From: Candidatus Magasanikiibacteriota bacterium
GTDB lineage: Bacteria; Patescibacteriota; Patescibacteriia; Magasanikbacterales; GWA2-37-8
Length of the DNA: 64,000 nt
NCBI GenBank assembly: GCA_041665405.1
Contig: JBAYIZ010000001.1
Location: 90,618-154,617 of the forward strand
Direction of reading: 5' to 3'
A model generated the notes under the pieces. It saw only the letters and a program-made list of their open reading frames with translations. It did not search any database and was not told the origin of the DNA. Position 1 is the stretch's first letter; every line of letters begins with the position of its first letter. The translations under genes and the position numbers were made by a program. Shown here one piece after another: positions 3,584 to 56,352 of the stretch.

Positions 3584-6376
3584 ATGTCATTTTTTACAAA
3601 ATTATTTGGCGATCCAAACGCCAAAGCAGTAAAAGAAATTTTGCCCATTGTTGAACAGGTGAATGCTTTTGAGGTAGAAATACAGAAGTTGTCTTTGGAA
3701 CAATTGAAAAATAAAACTACTGAATTCAAAGAACGTCTTGTCAAAGGTGAAACTCTAGAAGATCTATTACCAGAGGCTTTTGCGGTCGTTCGTGAAACTT
3801 CCAAGCGTGTCACCGGCATGCGTCATTTTGACGTTCAGCTTATCGGTGGTATTGCTTTGCATCGAGGCCAAATTTCTGAAATGCGCACGGGTGAAGGTAA
3901 AACTTTGGTAGCTACTTTGCCAATATATTTGAATGCACTCGCTGGACGAGGTGTTCATTTGGTAACGGTCAATGATTATTTGGCCAAACGTGATGCTGTT
4001 TGGATGAGTCAGATTTATGATGCTCTTGGTTTGAGTGTTGGTATTATTCAACAACAATTGGTTTCATATAAATACAATCCAAACAAGTTAAAAATTTTGG
4101 ATGTAAATGGTCAGGATGCGATGAGTGAAGGTGGTTCGATAGACAAAGAACGTGATGCCAAAGGAGCATACAAAGTAGAATATGAATATTTGGAAACTTG
4201 TTCTCGAAAAGAAGCCTATGCTTGTGATATCACATATGGGACCAACAATGAATTTGGTTTTGATTATTTGCGTGACAATATGGTGGGCAGTCTGGAAGAA
4301 ATGTCTCAGCGCCCATTTTATTTTGCTATCGTCGATGAAGTCGATTCTATTTTGATTGACGAAGCACGTACCCCATTAATTATTTCTGCCCCCGCAGAAG
4401 AAGCGGCCGAGATGTATTATAAGTTTGCGGAAATTGTGGCACGAATGGAATTGGACGTAGATTATAATGTTGATGAAAAAATGCGCGCTTCTACTTTGAC
4501 AGAAGCCGGTTTGAAAAAAGTAGAACAAGCGCTGAATGTAGAAAATATTTATGCCGAAGGCGGTATGACGATGGTGCACCACATCGAACAGGCTTTGCGT
4601 GCACGGGCATTGTTCAAACGAGACCGCGATTATGTAGTAGATAATGGAGAAGTTATCATCGTGGATGAATTTACCGGACGTAAAATGCCAGGCCGTCGTT
4701 ATAGCGAAGGTTTACATCAAGCTATCGAGGCACAAGAGCATGTAAAAATTCAGCGCGAAAGTCAAACTATGGCGACTATTACTTTCCAAAATTATTTCCG
4801 TTTGTATGAGAAGTTGGCTGGTATGACGGGTACGGCTGTTACGGAAGCGGAGGAATTTGCCAAGATTTATAAACTAGAAGTAGTGGTAATTCCAACCAAC
4901 AAAGATAATTTGCGTGTTGATCATCCAGATAGAATTTACAAAACTGAAGAAACAAAATATAAAGCCATCGCGCAAACTGTAAAGGAACTACAAAAAAAGG
5001 GACAGCCGGTTTTAATAGGTACTATTTCGGTAGAAAAAAATGAAGAATTGAGTTTGTACCTAGAACGCGAAGGCATCACACATGAAATTTTGAATGCGAA
5101 AAACCATGAGCGTGAAGGTGAAATTATCGCTCAAGCTGGACGAGCGGGAGCAGTAACTTTGGCTACCAATATGGCTGGTCGTGGTGTGGATATTATTTTA
5201 GGTGGCAATCCACCAGATAAGACAGAAGGTGACAAAGTACGTGCTGTGGGTGGATTATTTGTGATTGGTACCGAACGTCACGAAAGTCGTCGTATTGATA
5301 ATCAGTTGCGCGGTCGTGCGGCTCGTCAGGGTGACTCAGGTGAGACTCAGTTTTATCTATCTACTCAAGATGACTTGATGCGTATTTTTGCCGGTGATAG
5401 AATTCGCAGTGTGATGCAAACTTTGCGTGTGCCAGATGATATGCCGATTGAACAACGCTCGATTACCAAAATTATTGAATCTGCTCAGAAAAAAGTAGAA
5501 GGTTTTAATTTTGATTCTCGTAAACACTTGCTCGAATATGATGATGTGTTGAATCGTCATCGTGAAGTGGTGTATGGAAAACGTCGCCTAGTTTTGGAAT
5601 TGTTTGATAAACAAAAAAACAACGCTGTCACAGGAACTGTCATCCCCGTGAAAACGGGGATTCTTGAGGAAGAAAAGACCCTGCAATCTTTGATTTTGGA
5701 TATGATGGAAGCGGAAATAGAGCAGATTGTTTCGTTTCACACCAACACCGAAGACAAACACGAATGGAATATCAAAGAAATTGCTGAAGTGGTTGGTACT
5801 ATTTATCCAATAACTGAAGAAGAAAAAAATATCATATTAAATTTTGGCGAACACGGCGAACAAAAAATGCAAGCGGTGATTGAGCGCACCCATATTATTG
5901 AATATTTGACTCAATTAGCTAAAGAAAAATACCAGAAACTATTAGTAGCCAGAATTGACAATAAGGATTTACAGATTGAAATGGAAAAACAAATTTTATT
6001 ACGTTCAATGGACATGCTTTGGATTGATCATTTGGTAGCTGTAGATTATTTGCGCACCGGTATCGGTTTGCGCGGATATGGCCAACGTGATCCATTGGTT
6101 GAATACAAAAAAGAGACGTACCAGATGTTTAACGAGTTGCTTTCTGCCATGCAACATGAAGTGGTGTATGCGATTTTTAAAGTAAGTATCGGAATGGATA
6201 TGGCGCCAAGTGTAATGAAGAAAAATAATTTAATTTTCAAAGGTGCAGTACATGAGGGTGAAGTGGTGGATATAAATACCAAAGTTAAAAATGAACAGGG
6301 CGAAAAAATTGGCCGCAACGAACCATGCCCGTGTGGGAGTGGGAAGAAGTTTAAGAAGTGTCATATGAATGTTTAG
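3584..6376 (+). CDS. secA: Preprotein translocase ATPase SecA
   Basis: 930 aa. SecA N-terminus (MSFFTKLFGDPNAK...), DEAD-like motor motifs (DEVDSILIDEARTPLIIS), and the C-terminal Zn-binding CPCGSGKKFKKCH. Confidence 0.95.
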   Translation: MSFFTKLFGDPNAKAVKEILPIVEQVNAFEVEIQKLSLEQLKNKTTEFKERLVKGETLEDLLPEAFAVVRETSKRVTGMRHFDVQLIGGIALHRGQISEMRTGEGKTLVATLPIYLNALAGRGVHLVTVNDYLAKRDAVWMSQIYDALGLSVGIIQQQLVSYKYNPNKLKILDVNGQDAMSEGGSIDKERDAKGAYKVEYEYLETCSRKEAYACDITYGTNNEFGFDYLRDNMVGSLEEMSQRPFYFAIVDEVDSILIDEARTPLIISAPAEEAAEMYYKFAEIVARMELDVDYNVDEKMRASTLTEAGLKKVEQALNVENIYAEGGMTMVHHIEQALRARALFKRDRDYVVDNGEVIIVDEFTGRKMPGRRYSEGLHQAIEAQEHVKIQRESQTMATITFQNYFRLYEKLAGMTGTAVTEAEEFAKIYKLEVVVIPTNKDNLRVDHPDRIYKTEETKYKAIAQTVKELQKKGQPVLIGTISVEKNEELSLYLEREGITHEILNAKNHEREGEIIAQAGRAGAVTLATNMAGRGVDIILGGNPPDKTEGDKVRAVGGLFVIGTERHESRRIDNQLRGRAARQGDSGETQFYLSTQDDLMRIFAGDRIRSVMQTLRVPDDMPIEQRSITKIIESAQKKVEGFNFDSRKHLLEYDDVLNRHREVVYGKRRLVLELFDKQKNNAVTGTVIPVKTGILEEEKTLQSLILDMMEAEIEQIVSFHTNTEDKHEWNIKEIAEVVGTIYPITEEEKNIILNFGEHGEQKMQAVIERTHIIEYLTQLAKEKYQKLLVARIDNKDLQIEMEKQILLRSMDMLWIDHLVAVDYLRTGIGLRGYGQRDPLVEYKKETYQMFNELLSAMQHEVVYAIFKVSIGMDMAPSVMKKNNLIFKGAVHEGEVVDINTKVKNEQGEKIGRNEPCPCGSGKKFKKCHMNV
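5638..5663. repeat. GNRA-capped hairpin TCATCCCCGTG-AAAA-CGGGGAT embedded in-frame in secA. It belongs to a small repeat family also seen at 12574-12635, 42186-42205 and 46350-46374.
   Basis: Near-identical to the 12574-12597 copy over 24 of 26 nt, with a compensatory C-G to T-A change that preserves the stem. It encodes IPVKTGI within the SecA ORF. Confidence 0.45.
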
Positions 6377-6496: not shown

Positions 6497-8569
6497 ATGG
6501 CTAAGAATGCAAAACCGGTCGTCAGTTTGTCCCGTTCTCAGATAAAGTGGAGAGTATTGTGGATTGGTATATTATTGGTTGTTTGTGGGCTCATTGTGGC
6601 TCCAACTTATGCTAACAAAGGTGTTGATTGGGTAAACAACAAAGTTAATTTAGGTTTGCCACGTTTGCCAGACAAAGGCTTCAATTTAGGCCTAGATTTG
6701 CAAGGTGGCGCTCATTTGGTTTACCAAGCAGATACCACACAGGTGCCAGATGCCGATCGTGTTGACGCAGTTGAAGGTGTACGTGATGTTATCGAACGTC
6801 GTGTACGCGGTGGTCTAGGTGTTGCTGAACCATTGGTGCAAACTACCAAAGTCGGTGAGGATTTTCGTATCATCGTTGAATTGCCAGGTGTGACTGATGT
6901 AAATACTGCTATTAAAATGATCGGTGAAACTCCAGTTTTGGAATTCAAAGAAGAAAACAACGAACCTCCACGTACTTTAACTACGGAAGAAAAGAAACAA
7001 ATGGATGATTTCAACAAAGCGGCAGACAAAACAGCCAAACTTGCTTTGAAAGAAGTAGTGAGTGGTGTAGATTTTGCCACTGTGGTTTCCAAATATACTC
7101 AAGATGAAAAAAGTAAAAACAATGGTGGCGATTTAGGTTTTGTTACAGAAACACTTTATCCAGAAATTTTTACTTGGGCTAGTACCCATAAGGATGGTGA
7201 AGTAAGTAAAGAGTTGGTAAAAAGTTTTGAAGGCTTAAATATTTTAAAAAGAATTGGTGAACGTCAAGGTGAAAAACAAGTTGACGCGGCTCATATCTTG
7301 GTTTGTTATAAAGGTGCCGAGCGTTGTGATAACCCACTATATACTCAAGAAGAAGCCAAAACTAAAATTACTGAACTGAAAGCGAAAGCCAATGCTGAAA
7401 ACTTTTCTCAATTGGCCAAAGAATTTTCTACTGAACCAAATGCAAAAACAAGTGGTGGTGATTTAGGTAAATTTGGCAAAGGTCAAATGGTGCCTGAATT
7501 TGAAACGGCTGTTTGGGATGCACCAGTAGGTACTATTTCAGCTGTGGTAGAAACACAGTTTGGCTATCATATTATTTATAAGAAAGGCGAAGATTTTGCC
7601 AAAGAATATCAAGTGGCTCGTGTGTTTATTAAAACACAGCAAGAAGCTGATATTGTACCTCCAACAGATCAATGGAAAACCACCGGTTTGTCTGGTAAAC
7701 AGTTGAAACGAGCAGAAGTAACTCAGGATTCACAGACTGGTCAGACTCAGGTAAATTTGAATTTTGATGAAAATGGTACAAAACTATTTGCTGAAATAAC
7801 TGCAAGAAATGTTGGTAAACCGGTGGCTATTTATTTGGATGGTCAGCCAATTAGTATTCCAAAAGTAAATGAAGCAATCACAAGTGGTAGTGCAGTAATA
7901 TCTGGTGGATTTACTTTACTCGAAGCCAAACAACTTTCTCAAAGATTGAATTCTGGCGCATTGCCAGTGCCAGTTGAGTTGATTAGTCAACAAAAAGTAG
8001 ACGCTACTTTGGGTGTTGATTCATTGACCAAAAGTTTCCATGCTGGTTTGATTGGTTTGCTGGGCGTGATGTTATTCATGGTTATTTATTATCGTTTTCC
8101 AGGTTTGTTATCTGTATTTTCTTTGATAGTTTATGCATTACTAAGTTTGGCTACTTTCAAATTATTGGGAGTGACCATCACTTTGTCTGGTATCGCCGGT
8201 TTTATCTTGTCTATTGGTATGGCTGTGGACACCAACGTTTTGGTGTTTGAACGTCTAAAAGAAGAATTACGTTCTGGTAAAAATTTACATTCCGCTTCCG
8301 AGGAATCGTTCCGTCGCTCTTGGCCGTCTATTCGTGATGGTCATATTGCTACTTTGGTAAGTTGTGTATTCTTGGTCTGGTTTGGTACTGGTTTTGTGCA
8401 AGGTTTTGCTGTGACGTTGGCCATTGGTGTGTTGTTCAGTTTGTTCACCGCTATTGTGGCTACTCGCGCTGTCTCACGTCTGATTTTCAAATTCTTTAGC
8501 GAATATGGTAATTGGATGTTTTTGGGCCATGTTAAACCAGATTCTTCTTCTGAAATTATAAACAAATAA
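6497..8569 (+). CDS. secD: Protein-export membrane protein SecD carrying an inserted parvulin-type (PpiC) peptidyl-prolyl isomerase module in the periplasmic P1 head
   Basis: SecD motifs (GLDLQGGAHLVYQ..., VELPGVTDV..., and after aa ~400 TGLSGKQL...VAIYLDGQPISIPKV..., followed by 6 TM helices). Between aa ~155 and ~395 (nt ~6960-7680) there are parvulin signatures: GGDLGFV... and AAHILV...SGGDLGKFGKGQMVPEFE...TQFGYHIIYK. Confidence 0.85.
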   Translation: MAKNAKPVVSLSRSQIKWRVLWIGILLVVCGLIVAPTYANKGVDWVNNKVNLGLPRLPDKGFNLGLDLQGGAHLVYQADTTQVPDADRVDAVEGVRDVIERRVRGGLGVAEPLVQTTKVGEDFRIIVELPGVTDVNTAIKMIGETPVLEFKEENNEPPRTLTTEEKKQMDDFNKAADKTAKLALKEVVSGVDFATVVSKYTQDEKSKNNGGDLGFVTETLYPEIFTWASTHKDGEVSKELVKSFEGLNILKRIGERQGEKQVDAAHILVCYKGAERCDNPLYTQEEAKTKITELKAKANAENFSQLAKEFSTEPNAKTSGGDLGKFGKGQMVPEFETAVWDAPVGTISAVVETQFGYHIIYKKGEDFAKEYQVARVFIKTQQEADIVPPTDQWKTTGLSGKQLKRAEVTQDSQTGQTQVNLNFDENGTKLFAEITARNVGKPVAIYLDGQPISIPKVNEAITSGSAVISGGFTLLEAKQLSQRLNSGALPVPVELISQQKVDATLGVDSLTKSFHAGLIGLLGVMLFMVIYYRFPGLLSVFSLIVYALLSLATFKLLGVTITLSGIAGFILSIGMAVDTNVLVFERLKEELRSGKNLHSASEESFRRSWPSIRDGHIATLVSCVFLVWFGTGFVQGFAVTLAIGVLFSLFTAIVATRAVSRLIFKFFSEYGNWMFLGHVKPDSSSEIINK

Positions 8570-8571
8570 TT

Positions 8572-9489
8572 ATGACTATACCATTTATAAAATATTCTAA
8601 ATATCTATTAGCTGTGAGTGCAATCGTGACAGTCATCAGTTTGGCTTCATTATTCACTTGGGGTTTAAAACCTGGTATTGATTTTACTGGTGGTTCATTG
8701 CTTGAAATTAGTTTCAGTCAAACTCGTCCAGATAATCAAGTTATGGAACAGGCATTTGCTGATCTTGATCATAAAAATATCGTAATTCAAAAAACTGGAG
8801 AAAAAGGGATGATTATTCGAACAGCCTTTTTGCCAGAAAATGAGCATCAAACTGTTTTAAAAGGTTTGCGTACACAATTTGAAAAAGACGGAAACACATT
8901 GCGTGAAGATCAGTTTCAAACAATTGGCGCCGCCGTTAGTAAACAATTACGTCAGCGTTCTATCTGGGCAGTATTTTTGGTCATTGTAAGTATTATTGCT
9001 TTTGTGGCGTATGCATTCCGTACTGTATCATTCCCAGTAGCTAGTTGGAAATATGGTGTGACTGCTATTATTGCCGCTTCACATGATGTGTTGTTGGTAA
9101 TTGGTGTTTTTGCTTTCTTGGGACATTATAATAATGTAGAAGTAGATATTGGTTTTGTGGTGGCTTTATTGACCGTATTGGGTTATTCAGTACAGGATAC
9201 TATTGTAGTGTATGATCGTATCCGTGAAAATTTATTACGTCGTCGTAATGTTAGTTTTAGAGAAATGGTAGATATTGGTTTGAATGAAACTTTGATGCGC
9301 TCAATTAATACTACATTAATTACCATGATTCCTCTTTCTGCCTTGTACTTCTTTGGTGGAGCAACAATCAAGAATTTTGCTTTGGCTCTATTGATTGGTA
9401 TCGCTAGTGGTGCTTATTCTTCCATTTTTGTGGCCAGCCCGTTGTTGGCTTATGTAGATAAATGGCAGAGAAATAAAGCTACAAAATAA
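8572..9489 (+). CDS. secF: Protein-export membrane protein SecF
   Basis: 305 aa starting 3 nt after the secD stop. N-terminal TM helix, periplasmic domain, C-terminal TM bundle typical of SecF. Confidence 0.85.
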   Translation: MTIPFIKYSKYLLAVSAIVTVISLASLFTWGLKPGIDFTGGSLLEISFSQTRPDNQVMEQAFADLDHKNIVIQKTGEKGMIIRTAFLPENEHQTVLKGLRTQFEKDGNTLREDQFQTIGAAVSKQLRQRSIWAVFLVIVSIIAFVAYAFRTVSFPVASWKYGVTAIIAASHDVLLVIGVFAFLGHYNNVEVDIGFVVALLTVLGYSVQDTIVVYDRIRENLLRRRNVSFREMVDIGLNETLMRSINTTLITMIPLSALYFFGGATIKNFALALLIGIASGAYSSIFVASPLLAYVDKWQRNKATK

Positions 9490-9779: not shown

Positions 9780-11216
9780 ATGGAGCCGATTACTTTTTCA
9801 TCCACTTTTGGCTTTTCGATCAATTGGGAGTTTTGGTCTTGGATGTTTTCTCAGCCACCTGCCGATTTGATTGCATATTTGTTCGCCATTATTGGTTGGG
9901 TAATTTTGGTTTTGATTTGTGTTAGTTTGGGGTCACAACTGTTGGCGCTTTATCGAGCAAAAAAAGCGGATGGTCAGTGGGAGTGGGTGTTGTTGGCCGT
10001 CGATGTACCGCCATTATTTATTCAATCACCAAAAGCCGTAGAGCAGATTTTTGCTCATCTTAGTGGGGCAAAAGTTAGTATTCGTTTGTCAGAAAAATAC
10101 TGGATTGGTAAACGACAGAAAAATTTTAGTTTTGAAATAATTTCTATTGAAGGTTATATACAGTTTTTAATTCGTACTGAAATAGCTTATCGCGATCTAG
10201 TAGAGGCGGCGGTTTACGCTCAGTATCCAGAGGCAGAAATTACCGAGGTGGAGGATTATGTGGATATGATTCCAGGATCTTACCCAAGTGCAACCCACCA
10301 TATGTTTGGAGTAGAATTCCAATTAGCTGATGTTGATGCTTATCCTATTCGTACTTATCCAAACTTTGAATATAAAATTAGTAAAGACGAAGTTTTTAGC
10401 GATCCAATGGCAGCGATTTTGGAAAATTTTTCACGTATTGGGCATGGCGAACATTTTTGGTTACAGATCATTATTGAACCAGTCGGTAATGATTGGAAAA
10501 CAAAAGGTATCCAGTTGGTAAAGGATATTATTGCCGGTCATATTGGTCATCATGGAAATTTCTGGGGTGATGTAGTAGCTATGATTGGGAATATTCCGCT
10601 GGCTATTATGAAGGAATTTTTTAAATATTTGAATGCCTCAGAACATGAAGAAGAGGAAGTTCACAAGGAAATGCCTGGCAAATTGACCGATGTATCTCCA
10701 GGTGGAAAAAGCACCATCGAGGCGATTGAGGACAAGATTGCCAAATTAGGTTTCAAAACCAAGATTCGCGCTTTGTATGTGGCGAGAAATGAAGTTTTTA
10801 ATCCTACCCGTTGTGTAGATGGTTTTATTGGTTCACTTAACCAATTTCATATTCAAAGTCGCAATGCAATTATCCCGCGTTTTATTACGCATACTCATTT
10901 TCTTTTTTACAACCACATGAGAGAGATCTGGGTACAAAATAAATTTTTTAAAGCTTTTGCCAAGAGAAAAATAAAAGTGGGTGGTACTCCTTATATTTTA
11001 AATATCGAAGAGCTGGCAACACTGTGGCATTTCCCATTACCGTTTGTGAAGACTCCGCTTGTACAAAAGGCTGGTGCCAAACGTGGCGAACCACCAATGA
11101 ACTTGCCGATAGAAGTGGAATCTGGACCGCTAAGACCAAAGGTGAGGCCGACTGGACAGGTTGGGGAGACTGTAGAGGTTCCGGAGCAGGAACCAGAGGA
11201 ATTGTTATATGGATAG
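9780..11216 (+). CDS. ATPase-less paralog of the N-terminal (membrane plus middle) domain of the T4SS coupling-protein-like gene at 21153-23714
   Basis: Alignable blocks with the 853-aa protein: AQYPEAEIT/AQYPHAEIT, DPMAAILENFSRI/DPLVAILNPLSKM, FWLQIIIEPVGNDWKTKGIQLVKDI/ALIQFIVRPATSHWRKQGVHMIRDI, ATLWHFP/AGLWHMP. It stops exactly where the Walker-A ATPase begins in the paralog. Confidence 0.75.
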   Translation: MEPITFSSTFGFSINWEFWSWMFSQPPADLIAYLFAIIGWVILVLICVSLGSQLLALYRAKKADGQWEWVLLAVDVPPLFIQSPKAVEQIFAHLSGAKVSIRLSEKYWIGKRQKNFSFEIISIEGYIQFLIRTEIAYRDLVEAAVYAQYPEAEITEVEDYVDMIPGSYPSATHHMFGVEFQLADVDAYPIRTYPNFEYKISKDEVFSDPMAAILENFSRIGHGEHFWLQIIIEPVGNDWKTKGIQLVKDIIAGHIGHHGNFWGDVVAMIGNIPLAIMKEFFKYLNASEHEEEEVHKEMPGKLTDVSPGGKSTIEAIEDKIAKLGFKTKIRALYVARNEVFNPTRCVDGFIGSLNQFHIQSRNAIIPRFITHTHFLFYNHMREIWVQNKFFKAFAKRKIKVGGTPYILNIEELATLWHFPLPFVKTPLVQKAGAKRGEPPMNLPIEVESGPLRPKVRPTGQVGETVEVPEQEPEELLYG

Positions 11217-18516: not shown

Positions 18517-18587
18517 TTCCGAGACTTGGATTCGAACCAAGATAAGCAACTTCAGAGGCTGCTGTCCTACCATTAGACGATCTCGGA
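18517..18587 (-). tRNA. tRNA-Gln (anticodon CTG)
   Basis: Minus-strand cloverleaf: acceptor TCCGAGA/TCTCGGA, D-arm GTCT-AATGGTA-GGAC, anticodon arm GCAGC-CTCTGAA-GTTGC, T-arm CTTGG-TTCGAAT-CCAAG, discriminator A. CCA is not encoded. Confidence 0.85.
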
Positions 18588-21152: not shown

Positions 21153-23714
21153 CTACAGTGTTGCCTCACTTAAATCAATATGCGCTGGCATCGGCGTTCC
21201 TAGGGCAGATCGCTCCATTATTTCCGCTTCTACTATCTCACGTGGGCGACCATATTTGAGACGAGAAAGTTCTTTGATTGCTTCAGCTAGTTCTTTGTTG
21301 CCAGGTTTAGGAGGATAGGTAGTCATACTAAATGGTTTGGCGGCGGTGTTGTTGATAAGCAATTTGCAATAGGCGGTATATTGTTCGACATTGACCAAAT
21401 CATAAGCAGAAAAAACTGGAGCAAATTCTTTTTGTAAAATATCAGCATCTTCTACACCAATACGGAAGGACACGATAGTACCCGCGTTACCAAGCACCGC
21501 ATCACGCACTGTGGATTTGCCTTTGTTATCTTCCAACTGTTTCATGTATTGGTGAGCAATAATCAGTTCCAAACGATATTTACGAGCCTCAGAAAGAATC
21601 GTGGCGATAGAATCGGTAATAAAGTTTTGAAACTCATCAATGTATAAATAAAAATCATGGCGTTCTTCTTCTGGAATAGCGGCTCGTTCCAGAGCGGCCA
21701 TCTGTAACTTTGACACGATAATCATACCCAATAAATTGGAGTTGATCTCACCGGTCAAACCTTTGGCCAAATTTACAATTAAAATTTTCTTTTGATCCAT
21801 CACTTCACGGAAACTAAAACCGGAATGACTTTGGCCGATAATATTTCGCACCATGGCATTTTCAGTAAAGCGGCCTACTTTGGAAATCAAATAGCCCAAC
21901 ATTTCTGATTTGTGGAAGTCCGAAGTCTTGGCCATTTCTTTATCCCAGAAAGCCATAACTACCGGATCCTTTAATTTCTTTTTCCATTTGGCGACATACG
22001 TATCGTCGGTAAACATACGAGGCACTTCGGCAATGGTACCAGGATTTTCTAAGTCGGACATCAAGGTCAACATCACGTTGCGCATCTGATGCTCAAACAT
22101 CGGGCCGATCATCGAAGGATCAGTTACCATTTTGTAAAAAATGGAAATCATTTCTTGAGTAGCAAAATCTTTTTGACTTTCGGTTTTTACTTCCAACATA
22201 TTCAGACCAATCGGACGATCAGTGTCGGAAGGATTAAAATAAATAACATCATCAGCACGTTCTTTGGGCACGTGTTGCAAAACATATTCTGCAAAATCAC
22301 CATGCGGATCGACAATACAAACACCTTCGCCGTTTTGCACATCTTGAATAGCCAAATTTTGGATAAAAACAGATTTTCCACCACCGGATTTACCGACAGT
22401 ATATAGATGGCGGCGACGATCGCTACGGGTCATGCGCACGATGGTTTCTTCGCCGCGATAGACAGCTCGGCCCAAAATAATACCTTCTTTTGGCATATTG
22501 ACTGGTGGTGGAGCTTTGCGTGCACCAAGCCAGTTGATGTGAGGTGTTTCAGTATTTGGAATAGGCATGTGCCATAAGCCAGCAAACTCTTCGGTGTTGA
22601 CCACCATATAGTGTTTGGTATCCATCGAACGATAAATCGAATCACGAATCAATTTGTTTTGTTTGCGCGGTACGGCCGCTCCAAATGAGTTTCCGTAACG
22701 ATAAATGTTGTATTGGCTAAAAGAATTCACCATATTTTCCAGGTTGAGTTGAGCTGTTTGTTTGTTGTCGGCAGAACTGATCAAACGCACAGTAATTTCT
22801 AGCCCACCATGTGAAATTTTTTCTTCCATACTCTTTACCATCTCTTCTTCCATCTGAGTGAGGTGATAATCTTGAGTGTGGCTTTGTTTGGCTGGGTCTT
22901 TACTTTTTGGAAATAATGTTTTTTTCCATTTAACCAAAGAACGCATAAAGGCTCCGCGTCTGGCGACATATTCGAATTTTTGTCCTTCACGAATATCGCG
23001 AATCATATGGACACCCTGTTTGCGCCAATGAGAAGTGGCTGGTCTAACAATAAATTGGATTAGGGCGCCATCATTTTGAGACATTTTACTAAGTGGATTT
23101 AAAATAGCTACTAACGGATCACTATCCATTTTTTTGAATGTTTTTAGAGGAAACGCCGACCTGCTCTTCAAATTCAAATAGGCGCCAACTATATGGCTGG
23201 TTGGTTTGAAAATATTATAATCATTTTCTGGAGTAATCTCTGCGTGCGGATATTGAGCATGGATCTGTTGTTCGACAAATTCCTTCCAACGGTCGGGGAC
23301 AGCGACATAAAAAGAAATAGTGCCGTCTTTCACTACTATTTCAAAAGCGATATGATCATTGCGTCCGTATAGCCACTTGGTAAATCCTTTTTCGCCTTTT
23401 AAGCCAGCGATAGAGGAAAACATAGTTTCCGCCGTGGCGATATATTCGCGCGTTTGGTTTATATTTTGTTCTTGGTTTCCCTGATTTTGTGCACCTTCAT
23501 TCTTTTTTTCTTTTGGAACACGGACCAGGATGATAACCTTGTGAAAGGCCTTGCTTTCCAATCCTCTAGCATGCAAAATAGCACGTAATAAAAACAAAAG
23601 TCCGAACAGAATGATTAGCGCTAAAATAAAAAGCATGATAGCCAGAAAAATCGGATTGGCAATCCCATCGGAAATCATTTGAATTATATAATTTAAAAAG
23701 CTAACGGAATCCAT
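21153..23714 (-). CDS. Type IV secretion coupling-protein-like ATPase (TraD/TraG/VirD4 family) with an N-terminal membrane domain
   Basis: N-terminal TM helices. Walker A VGKSGGGKS, CIVDPHGDF, Walker B/arginine region FYLYIDEFQNF ... ARKYRLELIIAHQ. 853 aa. Confidence 0.65.
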   Translation of the reverse strand: MDSVSFLNYIIQMISDGIANPIFLAIMLFILALIILFGLLFLLRAILHARGLESKAFHKVIILVRVPKEKKNEGAQNQGNQEQNINQTREYIATAETMFSSIAGLKGEKGFTKWLYGRNDHIAFEIVVKDGTISFYVAVPDRWKEFVEQQIHAQYPHAEITPENDYNIFKPTSHIVGAYLNLKSRSAFPLKTFKKMDSDPLVAILNPLSKMSQNDGALIQFIVRPATSHWRKQGVHMIRDIREGQKFEYVARRGAFMRSLVKWKKTLFPKSKDPAKQSHTQDYHLTQMEEEMVKSMEEKISHGGLEITVRLISSADNKQTAQLNLENMVNSFSQYNIYRYGNSFGAAVPRKQNKLIRDSIYRSMDTKHYMVVNTEEFAGLWHMPIPNTETPHINWLGARKAPPPVNMPKEGIILGRAVYRGEETIVRMTRSDRRRHLYTVGKSGGGKSVFIQNLAIQDVQNGEGVCIVDPHGDFAEYVLQHVPKERADDVIYFNPSDTDRPIGLNMLEVKTESQKDFATQEMISIFYKMVTDPSMIGPMFEHQMRNVMLTLMSDLENPGTIAEVPRMFTDDTYVAKWKKKLKDPVVMAFWDKEMAKTSDFHKSEMLGYLISKVGRFTENAMVRNIIGQSHSGFSFREVMDQKKILIVNLAKGLTGEINSNLLGMIIVSKLQMAALERAAIPEEERHDFYLYIDEFQNFITDSIATILSEARKYRLELIIAHQYMKQLEDNKGKSTVRDAVLGNAGTIVSFRIGVEDADILQKEFAPVFSAYDLVNVEQYTAYCKLLINNTAAKPFSMTTYPPKPGNKELAEAIKELSRLKYGRPREIVEAEIMERSALGTPMPAHIDLSEATL

Positions 23715-40924: not shown

Positions 40925-41001
40925 TGGCGGGTCGGACGGGACTCGAACCCGCAACTTCTGCCGTGACAGGGCAGTGCTCTAACCAGTTGAACTACCGACC
41001 C
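40925..41001 (-). tRNA. tRNA-Asp (anticodon GTC), CCA encoded
   Basis: Minus strand GGGTCGG-TA-GTTC-AACTGGTTA-GAGC-A-CTGCC-CTGTCAC-GGCAG-AAGTT-GCGGG-TTCGAGT-CCCGT-CCGACCC-G-CCA. A terminator hairpin lies at 40878-40908. Confidence 0.9.
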
Positions 41002-42857: not shown

Positions 42858-42890
42858 AAGCTAATAAATTTGTCTGATAAAACAGACAAT

Positions 42891-43294
42891 GTGGAGGTGG
42901 CGAGAGTTGAACTCGCGTCCAGATAATTTTGAATATACCTTCTACATGCTTAGTCCACTTAGGATTTAACTATAGAGATAATAGGTGAACGAAACTCTCT
43001 ATGAGCGAGCCAGATTTACTTTCGGAATAAAGCATCTGACAATACCTTAAACCTACATCTCGTAAGTGACACCGTGTTGCGCTACGAAATCTCACGCAGG
43101 CGATGGGAAGCAACTATTAAGCTGCTACCGGAGCAAAATTGCAACAACCTTCGCCGATGAAGGCGTTGGTGAAAGCAATTTTAGCTTTTGAAAATAAGTT
43201 TGCACTTATAATTTGTTTTAGGGATTTATGAGGGCTAAAACATCCTCAGCATGCGAGTGTACGCAGAAACTTCTGTCAAAAGCACGGCACCCCC
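42891..43294 (-). ncRNA. ssrA: tmRNA (SsrA), ~400 nt
   Basis: 5' end GGGGGUGCCGUGC..., 3' tRNA-like end GGACGCGAGUUCAACUCUCGCCACCUCCA (T-arm plus acceptor). Internal tag reading frame ending ...NFAPVAA-stop. Lies 3 nt after the smpB stop. Confidence 0.8.
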
Positions 43295-52243: not shown

Positions 52244-52348
52244 TACATCATTGTCAGCCAGAGTTTAGTGAATGAGAATTTCTTTAAACTCGGACTGATA
52301 AAGTCCATTAAGTTCTTTACAATATATACGCAACTACTAAAAAATCAT

Positions 52349-52395
52349 CTGTGTGGGAGTAAGTCTGTGATAGTCATAGCTTTACTCCCACACAG
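52349..52395. repeat. 14-bp perfect inverted repeat CTGTGTGGGAGTAA / TTACTCCCACACAG with a 19-nt spacer, exactly at the AT-to-GC transition of cassette 4
   Basis: The motif CTGTGTGGGAGT recurs at 54569-54580, again upstream of a cassette gene. Confidence 0.6.
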
Positions 52396-52537
52396 GTGGA
52401 GGTGAGTGACTTCGGTTGCTCTTCTCCCTGGGTTAGGGAGAAACGTCGGAAGATCGTCGAAACGTTCGTCAACGTCCGAAAGTCTCAACAAGTCGGTAAC
52501 CAACCACGACTGTGAGAGACACCTCAAGGAGTCCCAG

Positions 52538-53320: not shown

Positions 53321-53701
53321 CCTCCCCGGCTAGCAGTAGTTGCGTAGGGGACCAGGTGCGACTTTCGCCCTGGTCCCCGCCAACTTCTCCTCTGTCTTTA
53401 GAGGAGACACTATTATCTGACGACGCTGATTATTGAGCGTCGAAAGGTTAGTGGCAAGACAAAAATCCCAAACAGGGTGCCCGAGCAATCGGGCCACTGG
53501 TTTAGATAATAAGAGATTGTTATCTGAAACGGTGGTATAAAAACCATCTCGTTCCTTTCAATATTATCCCAGCAAAATTTCCCATCGCGAAGAAAGAGTA
53601 TTGTAATAATATTTTTTCTTAGCGATGGGAGAATGTCCTCCCCACGTGAGCCGGAACCGCTCCGGTAAATATGGTTGGGGACCACCCACAAGGAGAGGCA
53701 G

Positions 53702-54298: not shown

Positions 54299-54505
54299 TC
54301 TACGGATCAGGCACCATGCTCCTTCTCGCGTCATGTTTATGATGATGCGAAGAGTGAGCGGTGAGCCAGCATTCCTGACACCGGGGGGAGCTATGATAGC
54401 ACCTTGTGTCAGGCTCCCTTCTTAGTGAATATATTATGTGTTCATTGAGAAGGGAAGTTACTGATAGCTATTTGACAATTTAAAGACTAGTTAAAAAATA
54501 ATAAA

Positions 54506-54559
54506 CCTGCGCGGGGAATTTAGCATATATCCAAATATATTCTGAATTCCCCGCGCAGG
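54506..54559. promoter_or_regulatory. 15-bp perfect inverted repeat CCTGCGCGGGGAATT / AATTCCCCGCGCAGG with a 24-nt AT-rich spacer, ~150 nt upstream of the Cys-rich gene
   Basis: Seen directly. Could be a terminator for the OMP-like gene or an operator. Confidence 0.5.
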
Positions 54560-54711
54560 CAGCCTTCGCGCTGTGTGGGAGTTTCGGTCCTAGACCGAAG
54601 CGACTCCCGCACTACGCGGGGGAGTGTGCTGTGAGAGGTACGAGACAGTCTCCGACGGTTGGCAACTTCGCTGACCTGAGGAAAAGGGTTTCTTTTGGAG
54701 GATACGTCCAG

Positions 54712-56352
54712 ATGGCTACCAAGCTCATCAAGCTGGCCGCGAGCTGCGCGGCGGTGTTCTGTTTCTTCACCCTTTCGGTCGGTTGCGAAAGCGCTCCGAC
54801 CATCCCGGCCGACATCGATGGCGGTTCGGTCGACACCGGCACCATCGACAACGACGCCGATGCGGGCACGACTGACGCCAACCCGTGCGACGACGGCAAC
54901 GCCTGCACGACCGACAAGTACGTCGCCGACACGTGCATCTACATCGCCATCGTCGCGCCCTGCGACGACGGCAACGCCTGCACGACTGGCGAGATGTGCA
55001 ACTTCGTCGGCATCTGCGGCGGCGCCACGCCCACGCAGTGCGACGACAACAGCGCCTGCACCACTGATACCTGCGACTCGACCAAGGGTTGTGTCTTCGC
55101 GGCCAACGCGGCCTGCGACGACGGTGACCTTTGCACCACCGACACCTGCGACCCGACCAAGGGCTGCGTCTTCGCGGCGAATACCTGCGACGACGGCAAC
55201 GCCTGCACCACCGACCTCTGCACCACCGGGGGCAACTGCTCCCACCTGCCGACGTCGGCTGCTTGCGACGACGGCAACGTGTGCACCTCGGGCGACACCT
55301 GCGTGACCGGCACCTGCGCCGGAACCGCCGTCACCTGCGACGACGGCAACGTGTGCACCGACGACGCCTGCGTTCCAAACGTGGGCTGCATGCATGGCAT
55401 CAACGTGATGCCCTGCGACGACGGCAGCGCGTGCACCTCGGGCGACACCTGTTTCGGTGGCGCTTGCGCCGGAACGGCGGTCTCGTGCGACGACAACAAC
55501 CCGTGCACGAACGACCTGTGCGACGGGGCCGTGGGGTGCGACTTCGCCCCCGCGACCTGCGACGACGGCGATCCGTGCACCATCGACACCTGCGACGCGG
55601 CAACCGGCTGCGCCTTCGCCGACAAGGTCTGCGACGACGGAAAAGTCTGGACCTGGGACAACTGTGACGCCTCTGGGTGGTACACCGGAACGGCCGGCGC
55701 GTGCTATTTCGACAACAAGTCGGGCGCCTGCCAGAAGGACTCGGACTGCACGGACAGCAATCCGTGTACGTTCGACGTGTGCAACCCGTTCACCGGGACC
55801 TGCAACGCGCCGTTGCAGGTCAGCTGCAACGACGGCAATCCCTGCACCTTGGATTATTGCCTCCCCGCACCCGGCTGCGTCAACGACGCGAAGGTGTGCA
55901 ACGACGGCAACGCCAAGACAGCGGACTCCTGCAGCGCAGCCACGGGAGTCTGTGTCTTCACGCCCATTTCGCAACCGCCCGTCAACCCGCCCGACACCGT
56001 CAAGATCGAAGTCCAGTGCGGAGCGTTTTCCGGGGAAGTTCATCCCATGTACGGGCTGACGGCTGATGGCAAGGGGTTCGATCCCTTCGGCCTGACGACC
56101 GGCACCGCGCCGTATGTGAACAACCTGCTCAAGGCGCAACTGTGCGTCTGGGGTTCGGAGATCGCGGTGCGTGACCTGTCCACGCCGTACCAGCTGTGGT
56201 TCGGTTGCGACAGCCCCACGAAGCTGGACGTCTGCGTCGTCAAGGTGAACGGTTTGCTCGTGCCCAACAAGTACGTGCATCACCTCAACGCCTGCATGGG
56301 CGGCGGCCAGGGCAACATCCAGCTTACCCCGGAGGACTTCGGCTGCAAGTAG
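54712..56352 (+). CDS. Cysteine-rich tandem-repeat secreted (lipo)protein (~14 CDDGNxCTxDxC...GC repeats) with a distinct ~130-aa C-terminal domain. A larger paralog of the protein at 25511-26563.
   Basis: GGAGG Shine-Dalgarno. Signal MATKLIKLAASCAAVFCFFTLSVGC. Repeats CDDGNACTTDKYVADTC, CDDGNACTTGEMC, CDDNSACTTDTCDSTKGC, CDDGDLCTTDTCDPTKGC, and so on. C-terminal domain carries conserved Cys pairs. Confidence 0.75.
   Translation: MATKLIKLAASCAAVFCFFTLSVGCESAPTIPADIDGGSVDTGTIDNDADAGTTDANPCDDGNACTTDKYVADTCIYIAIVAPCDDGNACTTGEMCNFVGICGGATPTQCDDNSACTTDTCDSTKGCVFAANAACDDGDLCTTDTCDPTKGCVFAANTCDDGNACTTDLCTTGGNCSHLPTSAACDDGNVCTSGDTCVTGTCAGTAVTCDDGNVCTDDACVPNVGCMHGINVMPCDDGSACTSGDTCFGGACAGTAVSCDDNNPCTNDLCDGAVGCDFAPATCDDGDPCTIDTCDAATGCAFADKVCDDGKVWTWDNCDASGWYTGTAGACYFDNKSGACQKDSDCTDSNPCTFDVCNPFTGTCNAPLQVSCNDGNPCTLDYCLPAPGCVNDAKVCNDGNAKTADSCSAATGVCVFTPISQPPVNPPDTVKIEVQCGAFSGEVHPMYGLTADGKGFDPFGLTTGTAPYVNNLLKAQLCVWGSEIAVRDLSTPYQLWFGCDSPTKLDVCVVKVNGLLVPNKYVHHLNACMGGGQGNIQLTPEDFGCK

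What the first reader, a model, noticed from the sequence alone, without database searches (positions are those of the whole stretch)
6960..7680. SecD with parvulin-type PPIase domain(s) inserted into its periplasmic head
Canonical SecD sequence is interrupted by ~240 aa containing unmistakable PpiC/parvulin signatures (AAHILV..., SGGDLGKFGKGQMVPEFE..., TQFGYHIIYK) plus a second, partial parvulin-like segment. This fuses a foldase (PrsA/SurA-like activity) directly to the translocon accessory subunit, placing prolyl-isomerase activity at the exit of the Sec channel. It is a striking domain fusion for a minimal envelope.
Basis: seen in the sequence. Interest (0 to 1): 0.6.

Follow-up and report, generated by a model that had tools for sequence, protein, structure and literature searches.

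The report
SecD with built-in parvulin foldase domains
The SecD subunit of this candidate-phyla-radiation bacterium's protein-export machine carries two prolyl-isomerase (parvulin) domains spliced into its outward-facing arm, an unremarked design common in this group that ties a folding helper to the export motor.

Summary
ORF 6497..8569 (+) encodes a 690-aa SecD, flanked by secA and secF. About 235 residues (aa 154-389, nt 6956-7663) replace a connector that is 12 residues or shorter in minimal SecDs. This connector joins the P1-base strand to the P1-head, so the insert lies before the head, not inside it.

The insert holds two parvulin domains, both well above Pfam cut-offs.
- D2 (aa 260-366) is canonical. 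Its active-site residues H266, E/D313, M331, F335 and H358 are conserved across relatives.
- D1 (aa 160-256) is not simply "partial". It lacks an N-terminal beta1 strand and both histidines (N248, R375).

Single-domain relatives show why. Their parvulin is circularly permuted, with the His-bearing beta1 strand following beta4. The window protein is therefore read as a permuted, degenerate outer domain with a canonical, probably active domain nested inside.

The design occurs in thousands of sequences. Every named source is Patescibacteria, and all are annotated only as "SecD" or "SecF". I found no paper describing it.

Most likely function (inferred): a foldase/holdase tethered to the translocon, a covalent version of the PpiD-SecD partnership or of PrsA. 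I rate it a new variant of a known kind, of moderate-to-good interest.

The parts
3584..6376 (+). secA (930 aa), immediately upstream in the same orientation
   Evidence: Pfam finds SecA_DEAD (E 4.5e-124) and the other SecA domains. A SecA homologue lies upstream on the same strand in 56 of 80 related loci, a count limited by the 3-kb flank.
6497..8569 (+). secD ORF, 690 aa, carrying the insertion
   Evidence: ORF list. TIGR01129 scores 367.8 against a cut-off of 244.4. phmmer against T. thermophilus SecDF 3aqp gives E 2.6e-73. An identical protein, P0001, is on record from a Candidatus Magasanikbacteria MAG.
6548..6610 (+). TM1 of SecD (aa ~18-38), which places everything up to aa ~505 outside the cytoplasm
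   Evidence: Hydrophobic stretch WRVLWIGILLVVCGLIVAPTY. The AF2 model has helix 13-34. Topology follows solved SecDF structures (PMC5974789).
6674..6955 (+). N-terminal part of the P1-base subdomain (aa 60-153), ending with the strand PVLEFKEE
   Evidence: Pfam Sec_GG at aa 59-81 and SecD_1st at aa 93-154. It aligns to TtSecDF residues 32-117.
6956..7663 (+). The insertion as a whole (aa 154-389, ~235 aa) between P1-base and P1-head
   Evidence: TtSecDF has 25 residues here where the query has 227. Minimal SecDs (P0174, P0201, P0236 and others) have 12 or fewer residues between the LEFK strand and the TGLSGK strand. The AF2 model of aa 146-402 has pLDDT 92.2 and pTM 0.69.
6974..7264 (+). D1: outer parvulin-like domain core (aa 160-256). 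It runs from a long alpha1 helix to beta4 (GLNILKRI). It has no N-terminal beta1, and N248 sits at the beta4 histidine position.
   Evidence: PF00639 scores 51.9 bits over profile positions 10-95 only. D203 is kept in 132 of 145 sequences. Position 248 is N in 113 of 145 and never H in 149 two-domain forms. The shorter 581-598 aa relatives retain D1.
7274..7594 (+). D2: inner, canonical parvulin PPIase domain (aa 260-366) with a full active-site set: H266, E313, M331, F335, H358
   Evidence: PF00639 scores 80.8 bits over profile positions 1-95. Conservation: H266 154/161, E/D313 161/178, M331 141/178, F335 171/178, H358 174/175. Foldseek gives TM 0.75-0.84 (normalised by target length) to Pin1 and PrsA PPIase domains. 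The cysteine pair C270/C277 co-varies perfectly, 125 C/C and never a lone Cys.
7595..7639 (+). Return strand (aa 367-381, KEYQVARVFIKTQQE), read as the displaced beta1 of the permuted D1, with R375 at the histidine position
   Evidence: It is kept directly after D1 in relatives that have lost D2. Single-domain relatives have a His-bearing A/S-H-I-L strand at the same place after beta4. Seven two-domain relatives still have His here. AF2 predicts one continuous strand over aa 356-379.
7664..7981 (+). P1-head subdomain (aa 390-495)
   Evidence: Pfam SecDF_P1_head, E 5.3e-29, aa 395-491. It aligns to TtSecDF from residue 143.
7994..8491 (+). TM2-TM6 of SecD (aa 500-665), including D578, the counterpart of the essential TM4 Asp (TtSecDF D340)
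   Evidence: Pfam SecD_SecF_C. In the alignment, query F584 pairs with Tt F346, so D578 pairs with D340. D578 is invariant in 73 relatives.
8572..9489 (+). secF (305 aa), starting 3 nt after the secD stop codon
   Evidence: TIGR00966 scores 273.7 against a cut-off of 160. It lies downstream on the same strand in 78 of 80 related loci.

Best explanation
This is a functional secD gene of a Patescibacteria (Candidatus Magasanikbacteria) genome. Its extracytoplasmic P1 domain carries a ~235-residue foldase module in the short connector between the P1-base and the mobile P1-head.

The module is a nested pair of parvulin domains.
- The outer domain, D1 (aa 160-256 plus the return strand 370-379), descends from a circularly permuted parvulin. 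That permuted form is the single-domain version of this insertion in other Patescibacteria. In this lineage D1 has lost both catalytic histidines, and it probably only binds substrate or acts as a scaffold.
- The inner domain, D2 (aa 260-366), has the canonical strand order and a conserved active site. It is probably an active peptidyl-prolyl isomerase.

In SecDF the P1-head captures the unfolded chain emerging from SecYEG and swings on the P1-base. A module mounted at that junction should therefore meet every exported chain as it is pulled out. It would hold the chain and isomerise its prolyl bonds. That is the job done in trans by membrane-anchored PpiD (which contacts SecD) in E. coli and by lipoprotein PrsA in Firmicutes.

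Shown here: gene integrity, domain identities, insertion point, permuted order in relatives, residue conservation and distribution. Inferred: strand pairing of D1, catalytic activity of D2, and action on translocating substrates.
For: Domain identities.

Insertion point.

Fold: the insert model has pLDDT 92.2. Its best PDB matches are SurA's parvulin region (E 6e-10 over 212-234 columns) and the Pin1, Ess1 and PrsA PPIase domains (TM 0.75-0.84, normalised by target length).

Active site: the D2 residues are under clear conservation, while D1 never has the beta4 histidine.

Circular permutation:
- In single-domain relatives the order is GDLG, then the G-x-H beta4 motif, then the S/A-H-I-L beta1 motif. 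This holds in 109 of 120 sequences.
- Moving that C-terminal strand to the N-terminus extends the Pfam match from profile positions 11-96 to 1-96. It raises the score from 88.3 to 93.4 bits for PF00639 and from 101.6 to 108.8 bits for PF13616.

Nesting:
- Relatives that lost D2 keep D1 followed directly by the return strand.
- A relic His remains in the return strand of 7 relatives.

It is a real, selected architecture:
- All 120 best homologues carry it.
- 253 GTDB species genomes matched, and the best 80 all align over the full 257-aa insert-plus-flank query.
- 75 of the 150 best 50%-identity cluster representatives have a parvulin between base and head.
- secA-secD-secF synteny is conserved.
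- The SecD proton-pathway Asp is conserved.

Functional context from the literature:
- The P1-head cavity cross-links to precursor and swings on the P1-base (PMC5974789).
Against: - No enzymatic or genetic data exist for any member.
- The full-length model has pTM 0.44, so the position of the module relative to the head cavity, SecF P4 or SecYEG is unknown.
- In the best-studied relatives (SurA, PpiD) PPIase activity is dispensable or absent (PMC9643414 notes that the importance of PpiD's parvulin domain is questioned). Conserved catalytic residues therefore do not prove that isomerisation is the selected function.
- D2 has been lost and replaced by a Ser/Thr-rich linker in several close relatives of 581-598 aa, and some SecDF relatives lack any Rotamase domain (P0416, P0420). 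D2 is thus not indispensable.
- The same de-permutation test applied to the window's own degenerate D1 was inconclusive. PF00639 did not change, and PF13616 rose only from 33.7 to 36.1 bits.
- I could not examine whole genomes for stand-alone PrsA or PpiD.
Confidence: 0.7

Rival explanations
1. The module is a chaperone only. It is a substrate-binding (holdase or hand-off) device like the parvulin domains of PpiD and SurA P1. Prolyl isomerisation would be irrelevant, and the conserved D2 residues would serve peptide binding rather than catalysis.
For: - D1 is strongly conserved (D203, W227, N248, R375) despite having no histidines. This argues for a non-catalytic selected role for at least half of the module.
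- D1, not D2, is the part retained when one domain is lost within this clade.
- SurA's parvulin region is the best multi-domain structural match.
- The functional importance of PpiD's parvulin domain has been questioned (PMC9643414).
Against: - D2 keeps the full catalytic set (H266, E/D313, M331, F335, H358) in 143 of 149 two-domain forms.
- The single-domain permuted forms keep both histidines in 109 of 120 sequences. That is hard to explain if catalysis were not under selection.
- D2's beta4 motif TQFGYHII matches, from my memory, that of the active E. coli Par10.
Confidence: 0.2
2. The module is mechanical, regulatory or a docking device. It sits on the base-head hinge and would mainly tune or gate the proton-driven swing of the P1-head. 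Alternatively it would dock SecDF to another envelope component (SecYEG, YidC, cell wall or S-layer) rather than acting on exported substrates.
For: - The insertion lies exactly at the connector about which the head moves (PMC5974789).
- The same junction hosts unrelated 100-190 aa inserts with no parvulin match in other SecD clusters (P0226, P0227, P0253, P0260, P0266). The site therefore tolerates, and may exploit, bulky additions.
- AF2 predicts two long continuous strands (246-269 and 356-379), which suggests a rigid arm.
Against: - A purely mechanical role does not explain conservation of a complete parvulin active site.
- It also does not explain why parvulins specifically dominate this site across Patescibacteria (75 of the 150 best representatives).
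Confidence: 0.08
3. The fusion is an artefact. It would be a chimeric metagenomic assembly, or two genes wrongly merged (a prsA-like gene within or next to secD).
For: The window comes from a metagenome-assembled genome. It also contains a compositionally foreign 4-kb island elsewhere.
Against: - It is a single uninterrupted ORF with uniform GC, about 0.39 across 6-8 kb.
- The same architecture occurs in at least 80 independent species-level genomes and in thousands of proteins from independent assemblies, with 51-89% identity across the junctions.
- The SecD halves on either side of the insert align in register to solved SecDF structures.
Confidence: 0.01

Closest known systems
Canonical SecD/SecDF (Thermus thermophilus 3AQP/5YHF, Deinococcus radiodurans 5XAP, E. 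coli SecD)
   Same: - TM1, P1-base, P1-head and TM2-6 all align in register (phmmer E 2.6e-73 to 3aqp).
- The essential TM4 Asp is present as D578.
- secF is adjacent.
   Different: About 235 residues holding two parvulin domains replace the short base-to-head connector. That connector is 25 aa in T. thermophilus and 12 aa or fewer in minimal SecDs. No solved SecD/SecDF matched by sequence in the PDB search (3aqp/5yhf, 5xan/5xap, 5xam, 5mg3, 3aqo) has such a domain.
PpiD-YfgM at the E. coli/Vibrio Sec translocon
   Same: It is a parvulin-domain protein held at the outer face of the cytoplasmic membrane next to the Sec channel. [quoted passage not shown] The PpiD-YfgM structure 8zht is a Foldseek hit of the insert.
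   Different: - PpiD is a separate protein with its own TM anchor. It has chaperone domains flanking one catalytically doubtful parvulin, and it partners with YfgM.
- Here the parvulins are covalently inside SecD. There are no SurA_N/PpiD-type chaperone domains. One parvulin keeps a full active site.
PrsA foldase lipoprotein of Firmicutes
   Same: It is an extracytoplasmic, membrane-tethered parvulin acting on Sec-exported proteins in a cell without an outer membrane. PrsA parvulin domains are among the closest sequence and structure matches to D2 (6vj6 at E 1.3e-15; 2jzv at TM 0.84, normalised by target length).
   Different: - PrsA is a lipoprotein dimer whose parvulin is inserted into an N/C chaperone domain.
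- NCBIfam PrsA models match only the parvulin part and fall far below their cut-offs (85.4 against 343).
- The anchor here is SecD itself.
SurA (two parvulin domains: P1 inactive, P2 active)
   Same: Two parvulin domains in series, one degenerate and one catalytically competent. It is the best multi-domain sequence and structure match to the insert (1m5y: phmmer E 3.7e-15 over query aa 165-360; Foldseek E 6e-10 over 212-234 columns).
   Different: - SurA is soluble and periplasmic, serves outer-membrane protein biogenesis, and has N- and C-terminal chaperone segments.
- Its parvulins have the canonical strand order.
- Here the outer domain is read as circularly permuted with the inner one nested in its beta4-to-beta1 loop.
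Single-domain SecD-parvulin proteins of other Patescibacteria (e.g. P0131, P0310 Veblenbacteria, P0358 Kerfeldbacteria, P0359 Nomurabacteria)
   Same: The insertion site is the same, the SecD framework is the same, and the strand after the parvulin core leads into the head in the same way.
   Different: Those proteins have one circularly permuted parvulin that keeps both histidines. The window's lineage has two domains, and the permuted one is degenerate.

Membership tests
SecD (protein translocase subunit SecD, TIGR01129 / Pfam SecD_1st + SecDF_P1_head + SecD_SecF_C) | Score above the curated family cut-off | tested here: met
   TIGR01129 scores 367.8 bits against a cut-off of 244.4. All three SecD Pfam domains are above their gathering scores.
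SecD (protein translocase subunit SecD, TIGR01129 / Pfam SecD_1st + SecDF_P1_head + SecD_SecF_C) | Topology: TM1, a large extracytoplasmic P1 (base plus head), then five C-terminal TM helices of the RND type | tested here: met
   The AF2 model has helices 13-34 and 507-664 with a beta-rich P1 between them. The protein aligns to TtSecDF and DrSecDF over base, head and TM2-6. Foldseek's top hits are SecDF structures.
SecD (protein translocase subunit SecD, TIGR01129 / Pfam SecD_1st + SecDF_P1_head + SecD_SecF_C) | Conserved TM4 aspartate of the proton pathway (TtSecDF D340) | tested here: met
   D578 aligns with Tt D340 and is invariant in 73 relatives.
SecD (protein translocase subunit SecD, TIGR01129 / Pfam SecD_1st + SecDF_P1_head + SecD_SecF_C) | Partner SecF encoded adjacent to, or fused with, SecD | tested here: met
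   secF at 8572..9489 scores 273.7 on TIGR00966 against a cut-off of 160. It is adjacent in 78 of 80 related loci.
SecD (protein translocase subunit SecD, TIGR01129 / Pfam SecD_1st + SecDF_P1_head + SecD_SecF_C) | PMF-dependent stimulation of protein export | not testable with these tools
   This needs biochemistry or genetics.
Parvulin-type PPIase (Pfam PF00639 Rotamase), domain D2 (aa 260-366) | Full-length match to the family profile above the cut-off, and the parvulin fold | tested here: met
   PF00639 scores 80.8 bits over profile positions 1-95 of 97. Foldseek gives rmsd 2.0-2.7 A over ~113 columns to Pin1 and Ess1, and TM 0.84 (normalised by target length) to S. aureus PrsA PPIase.
Parvulin-type PPIase (Pfam PF00639 Rotamase), domain D2 (aa 260-366) | Active-site residues: the two histidines (Pin1 H59/H157), an acidic or Cys residue (Pin1 C113, Asp in Par14/PrsA/SurA), and the hydrophobic proline pocket (Pin1 M130/F134) | tested here: met
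   The residues are H266, H358, E313 (E or D in 161 of 178), M331 and F335, all conserved across relatives. The mapping onto Pin1 numbering was done by hand from the Pin1 sequence recalled from memory. The local motifs are unambiguous.
Parvulin-type PPIase (Pfam PF00639 Rotamase), domain D2 (aa 260-366) | Measurable cis-trans isomerase activity | not testable with these tools
   This needs an enzyme assay.
Parvulin-type PPIase (Pfam PF00639 Rotamase), domain D1 (aa 160-256 plus return strand) | Match to the family profile above the cut-off | tested here: met
   PF00639 scores 51.9 bits, E 1.6e-13, but over profile positions 10-95 only, so beta1 is absent at the N-terminus.
Parvulin-type PPIase (Pfam PF00639 Rotamase), domain D1 (aa 160-256 plus return strand) | The two active-site histidines | tested here: not met
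   The beta4 position is N248 and is never His in 149 two-domain forms. The return-strand position is R375, which is His in only 7 of 149. The acidic residue D203 is retained. D1 is therefore a parvulin-fold domain but probably not an enzyme.
Parvulin-type PPIase (Pfam PF00639 Rotamase), domain D1 (aa 160-256 plus return strand) | Canonical strand order beta1-alpha1-3-beta2-alpha4-beta3-beta4 | tested here: not met
   - The order inferred for D1 is alpha1...beta4, then D2, then beta1.
- Single-domain relatives show beta4 before the His-bearing beta1.
- The de-permutation test restores the full profile match.
- For the window's own D1 the same test was inconclusive.
PrsA / SurA / PpiD chaperone-PPIase family | N- and C-terminal chaperone domain (SurA_N / PrsA NC domain) flanking the parvulin | tested here: not met
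   No SurA_N-type Pfam domain was found. The NCBIfam PrsA, SurA and PpiD-type models match only the parvulin stretch and fall far below their cut-offs: 85.4 against 343, 65.8 against 394, and 54.8 against 493.
PrsA / SurA / PpiD chaperone-PPIase family | An anchor or localisation signal of its own: a lipobox (PrsA), an N-terminal TM (PpiD), or soluble periplasmic (SurA) | tested here: not met
   The parvulins lie inside the SecD P1 loop, between TM1 and TM2 of SecD. This protein may work like PrsA or PpiD, but it is not a member of that family.

The most novel reading that the evidence does not exclude
A parvulin built into the SecD base-head hinge is an ancestral, near-universal feature of the Patescibacteria Sec machinery, replacing free PrsA/PpiD-type foldases.
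- The domain is a circularly permuted parvulin, a topology I could not find described for this fold.
- In the Magasanikbacteria lineage, a tandem duplication of the permuted unit regenerated a canonical-order active domain in the middle (beta1 of unit A plus the core of unit B). The flanking halves were left to form a degenerate substrate-binding domain.
- Because the module rides on the proton-driven hinge, prolyl isomerisation and substrate hand-off would be mechanically coupled to each power stroke of SecDF.
Probability: 0.3. Interest if true: 0.7.

Novelty: new variant of a known kind. Interest (0 to 1): 0.58.

Why it matters
**Evidence for a SecDF-foldase partnership.** How exported proteins pass from the Sec channel to folding factors is still unsettled. 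In E. coli, the contact between PpiD and SecD rests on cross-linking. A natural covalent fusion of parvulin domains into SecD, conserved across a huge bacterial radiation, is 'Rosetta-stone' evidence that SecDF and parvulin foldases work as one unit. It also gives a single polypeptide in which that coupling can be studied structurally and biochemically.

**A possible envelope solution for ultra-small bacteria.** It hints at how bacteria with minimal genomes and no outer membrane economise on envelope proteostasis.

**A case study in domain evolution.** The fold is a circularly permuted parvulin. An apparent duplication then recreates the canonical order.

**An annotation gap.** Every named database record I saw calls these proteins only 'SecD' or 'SecF'.

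Tried and rejected

2. Model coordinates are not exposed. The pairing of D1 beta4 with the return strand, and the placement of the module relative to the head cavity, could not be measured. They rest on DSSP strings and comparative sequence evidence.

3. The de-permutation test on the window's own D1 was inconclusive. PF00639 did not change, and PF13616 rose from 33.7 to 36.1 bits with coverage extended from 31-111 to 15-111. The same test on the non-degenerate relative P0131 was positive.

4. I searched the 64-kb window for a second, stand-alone parvulin using HMMs built from D1 and D2. None was found. This says nothing about the rest of the genome.

5. Cluster look-ups for taxonomy returned organism names for only 1 of 20 representatives. 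Taxon names came mainly from the homologue searches and the GTDB genome scan.

6. Nine literature searches found no paper on a SecD-parvulin fusion or on a permuted parvulin. The terms covered SecD with parvulin, rotamase, PPIase and PpiC, with CPR/Patescibacteria, and parvulin with circular permutation or permuted. The library omits most subscription journals, so this is absence of evidence only.

7. I considered a Pin1-like phosphate-binding loop in D2, prompted by the long beta1-alpha1 loop and the best structural hits being Pin1 and Ess1. I rejected it because the basic residues K272 and R276 are not conserved in the family consensus.

8. An assembly or annotation artefact is rejected (see the rival explanations).
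Full report
**1. What is in the sequence**

The finding's coordinates (6960-7680) fall inside a single intact ORF, 6497..8569 on the + strand, 690 aa. It is preceded by secA (3584..6376) and followed 3 nt later by secF (8572..9489).

Pfam gives this layout:
- Sec_GG, aa 59-81
- SecD_1st (N-terminal part of the P1-base), aa 93-154
- Rotamase PF00639 in two stretches, E 4.8e-36
- SecDF_P1_head, aa 395-491
- SecD_SecF_C, aa 493-655

NCBIfam's secD model TIGR01129 scores 367.8 against a cut-off of 244.4. The two parvulin stretches were scanned separately, and both exceed the 21.7-bit cut-off by a wide margin:
- The aa 145-261 segment scores 51.9 bits, E 1.6e-13.
- The aa 258-393 segment scores 80.8 bits, E 1.5e-22.

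GC content across the gene is uniform at about 0.39.

**2. Where the insertion sits**

phmmer against PDB sequences aligns query aa 61-152 with T. thermophilus SecDF residues 32-117. It aligns query aa 380-659 with residues 143-421. So 227 query residues stand where Thermus has 25.

Minimal SecD relatives (P0174, P0201, P0236, P0200, P0251) go from the strand '...ETP-LEFK' to the strand 'TGL(S/T)GK-LK-A' in 12 residues or fewer. The window protein has aa 154-389 between them.

The insert is therefore in the connector between the P1-base and the P1-head. It is just before the head subdomain, not inside it. The P1-head moves relative to the P1-base between the solved super-F, F and I forms of SecDF, and its cavity cross-links to precursor proteins (PMC5974789).

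The rest of SecD looks functional. D578 aligns with the essential TM4 Asp340 of TtSecDF and is invariant in 73 relatives.

**3. Anatomy of the insert**

An AlphaFold2 model of the full protein has mean pLDDT 80.5 but pTM 0.44. The individual domains are confident, with 10-residue block means of 80-94 across aa 161-380. Their mutual arrangement is not. A model of aa 146-402 alone has pLDDT 92.2 and pTM 0.69.

Foldseek against the PDB returns:
- SurA's parvulin region, E 6e-10 over 212-234 columns
- Pin1 and Ess1 PPIase domains, rmsd 2.0-2.7 A over ~113 columns, TM 0.72-0.78 for the single-domain chains (normalised by target length)
- S. aureus PrsA PPIase, TM 0.84 (normalised by target length)

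*D2 (aa 260-366)* matches the whole Pfam profile (positions 1-95). It has the parvulin active-site set: H266 (AAHILV), E313 at the Cys/Asp position (FSTEPNA), M331 and F335 (MVPEF), and H358 (TQFGYHII). Conservation in 178 D2-type domains from relatives:
- H266: 154 of 161 non-gap
- E or D at 313: 161 of 178
- F335: 171 of 178
- H358: 174 of 175

The mapping onto Pin1 numbering was done by hand from the Pin1 sequence as I remember it. The motifs themselves are unambiguous.

*D1 (aa 160-256)* matches only profile positions 10-95, so it has no N-terminal beta1 strand. It keeps the acidic residue (D203, 132 of 145) and strongly conserved F193, Y200, W227 and G246. It has N248 where the beta4 histidine should be.

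**4. The 'partial' domain is a circularly permuted parvulin**

Several lines of evidence support this reading.

(a) *Forms that lost D2.* Within the same clade there are shorter proteins of 581-598 aa. The alignment shows that they have lost D2, which is replaced by a short Ser/Thr-rich linker. They keep D1 followed directly by 'EYQVARVFIKT' and the head.

(b) *Single-domain forms.* More distant SecDs have one parvulin at the same site (P0131, P0136, P0139, P0140, P0151, P0154, P0156, P0170 and others). In these, Pfam again matches profile positions 10-96 right after the base strand. The sequence after beta4 ('TQFGYHIIKK') continues through a short loop into 'ISASHILFKT', 'VHSQHILFAK' or 'VKASHILIKT'. 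That is the classical His-bearing beta1 motif, now located C-terminal to beta4.

(c) *Frequency.* Among 120 homologues of P0131, 109 show the order GDLG, then beta4-His, then beta1-His.

(d) *De-permutation test.* Moving that C-terminal strand of P0131 to the N-terminus in silico gives:

| Model | Profile coverage | Score (bits) |
|---|---|---|
| PF00639 | 11-96 to 1-96 | 88.3 to 93.4 |
| PF13616 | 30-115 to 14-115 | 101.6 to 108.8 |

(e) *Two-domain forms.* In 149 such sequences:
- The D2 histidine pair is intact in 143.
- The D1 beta4 position is never His (N in 107).
- The return-strand position (R375 here) is Arg in about 114 and still His in 7 ('LAHIYVK', 'VSHIFIP').

(f) *Predicted strands.* AF2 predicts two long uninterrupted strands, aa 246-269 and aa 356-379. 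This is what is expected if D1 beta4 runs straight into D2 beta1, and D2 beta4 runs straight into the return strand.

My reading is that D1 is a permuted parvulin (alpha1 through beta4, plus beta1 supplied by aa 370-379). D2, in canonical order, is nested in its beta4-to-beta1 loop.

The D2 core resembles the single-domain core much more than the D1 core does. This is from inspection of the sequences. A tandem duplication of the permuted unit would therefore explain the arrangement simply. Beta1 of the first unit plus the core of the second form the active canonical domain, and the leftover halves form D1.

The pairing and the duplication scenario are inferences. The de-permutation test on the window's own degenerate D1 was inconclusive.

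**5. Distribution**

The exact protein is on record from a Candidatus Magasanikbacteria MAG. All 120 best homologues (63-100% identity) carry both SecD and Rotamase Pfam domains.

A scan of one genome per GTDB species found 253 genomes encoding a relative. The best 80 all align over the full 257-aa insert-plus-flank query at 51-82% identity. They are titled Magasanikbacteria, Magasanikiibacteriota, Patescibacteria or Paceibacter. A block of TPA assemblies is titled 'uncultured Gammaproteobacteria', which looks like a placeholder label.

In an exhaustive search of 1.84 billion cluster representatives, 75 of the 150 best SecD clusters have a parvulin between base and head. The architectures are:
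- one permuted domain (~530-625 aa)
- two domains (~655-705 aa)
- larger inserts (~775-940 aa)
- SecD-SecF fusions (~1015-1120 aa)

Named examples of the single-domain form come from Veblenbacteria, Kerfeldbacteria and Nomurabacteria. The SecDF-fused form comes from Peregrinibacteria, Gracilibacteria and Peribacterales. A two-domain form comes from Komeilibacteria.

Every taxon name I saw is Patescibacteria/CPR. I did not establish that the fusion is absent elsewhere. All source names are plain 'SecD', 'SecF' or 'SecD/SecF fusion protein'.

Synteny secA-secD-secF is conserved. secF is present in 78 of 80 loci. secA is present in 56 of 80, limited by the flank length.

**6. How it most likely works**

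*Established background:*
- SecDF is a PMF-driven factor whose P1-head binds the emerging unfolded chain and swings on the P1-base (PMC5974789).
- In Firmicutes the lipoprotein PrsA plays the post-translocational foldase role. This last point is from my own knowledge.

*Inference:* Placing a substrate-binding parvulin (D1) and a catalytically intact parvulin (D2) on the base-head connector puts them beside the head cavity. They would be in the path of every exported chain. The module would then act as a translocon-tethered holdase/foldase, a covalent version of the PpiD-SecD or PrsA arrangement.

I put this at about 0.7. The main alternative is that only chaperone binding matters and catalysis does not (about 0.2). 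That view is supported by D1 being the retained part when one domain is lost, and by the dispensability of PPIase activity in SurA and PpiD. A mainly mechanical or docking role for the hinge insert is possible but does not explain the conserved active site (about 0.08). An artefact is excluded for practical purposes.

**7. Comparison with known systems, and novelty**

The protein is a bona fide SecD, and all testable defining features are met. D2 is a bona fide parvulin domain by sequence, fold and active-site residues. D1 has the parvulin fold but fails the histidine and strand-order criteria.

The protein is not a member of the PrsA/SurA/PpiD family. It has no N/C chaperone domain and no anchor of its own, and it scores far below those family cut-offs. 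It probably works like them.

Nine full-text searches found no paper describing a SecD-parvulin fusion or a circularly permuted parvulin. The library lacks most subscription journals. The domain combination is also visible in precomputed Pfam annotations. So the architecture is 'in the databases' but apparently unremarked.

I classify it as a new variant of a known kind. The parts and a plausible function are familiar. The covalent arrangement, the insertion site, the permuted topology and the breadth across named Patescibacteria lineages are the news.

**8. Limits**

- There is no functional data.
- The inter-domain geometry is unknown.
- There was no whole-genome check for free PrsA or PpiD.
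- Taxonomic breadth was judged from the minority of records that carry names.

Noticed in passing
window 52300-56500: A compositional island with GC 0.56-0.68 in most 250-nt windows, against ~0.38 for the rest of the window. Long spurious ORFs lie on both strands. The real gene appears to be 54631..56352 (+), 573 aa. It has an N-terminal signal/lipobox-like sequence (LSVGC) and many Cys-rich 'CDDGNxCTxDxC' repeats (Pfam Dicty_CTDC, E 1.1e-49, 9 stretches). This may be horizontally acquired DNA or an assembly chimera. The origin is not resolved.
   Followed up: partly
window 9780-11216 (+): A 478-aa ORF directly downstream of secF has no significant Pfam family. It is conserved on the same strand downstream of secD-secF in 66 of 80 related Patescibacteria loci. 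It is a possible additional partner of the Sec operon.
   Followed up: partly
window 7304-7327 (SecD aa 270-277): Two cysteines in the beta1-alpha1 loop of D2 (HILVC270YKGAERC277) co-vary perfectly across relatives: 125 sequences have C/C and none has a lone Cys. This suggests a disulfide or metal staple in an extracytoplasmic loop.
   Followed up: partly
relatives P0016, P0018, P0029, P0039 (581-598 aa), aligned to window 7274-7594: Close relatives in the same clade have replaced the catalytically intact D2 with a short Ser/Thr/Ala-rich linker, while keeping the degenerate D1 and the return strand. The 'inactive' domain is the constant part.
   Followed up: yes
SecD cluster representatives P0226, P0227, P0245, P0253, P0260, P0266, P0152, P0167: Other SecDs carry 100-190 aa inserts at the same base-head junction. 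My parvulin HMMs gave no match for any of them. Pfam, run only on P0227, found no domain in its insert. The junction appears to be a general hotspot for domain insertion.
   Followed up: no
loci L003, L006, L009, L013, L014 and others: Many TPA metagenome assemblies that encode clearly Magasanikbacteria-type SecD (up to 78% identity over the insert) carry the record title 'uncultured Gammaproteobacteria bacterium'. This is probably a placeholder or a mislabel in the source records.
   Followed up: no
window 42889-43294 (-), 40928-41001 (-), 18517-18587 (-): A tmRNA gene (Rfam RF00023, 122.6 bits) and two tRNA genes.
   Followed up: no
window 46919-51958 (+) and 21153-23714 (-): A 1679-aa ORF has no Pfam match at E 0.001 or better. 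An 853-aa ORF has TrwB/VirD4-type coupling-protein domains (TrwB_AAD_bind, T4SS-DNA_transf).
   Followed up: no
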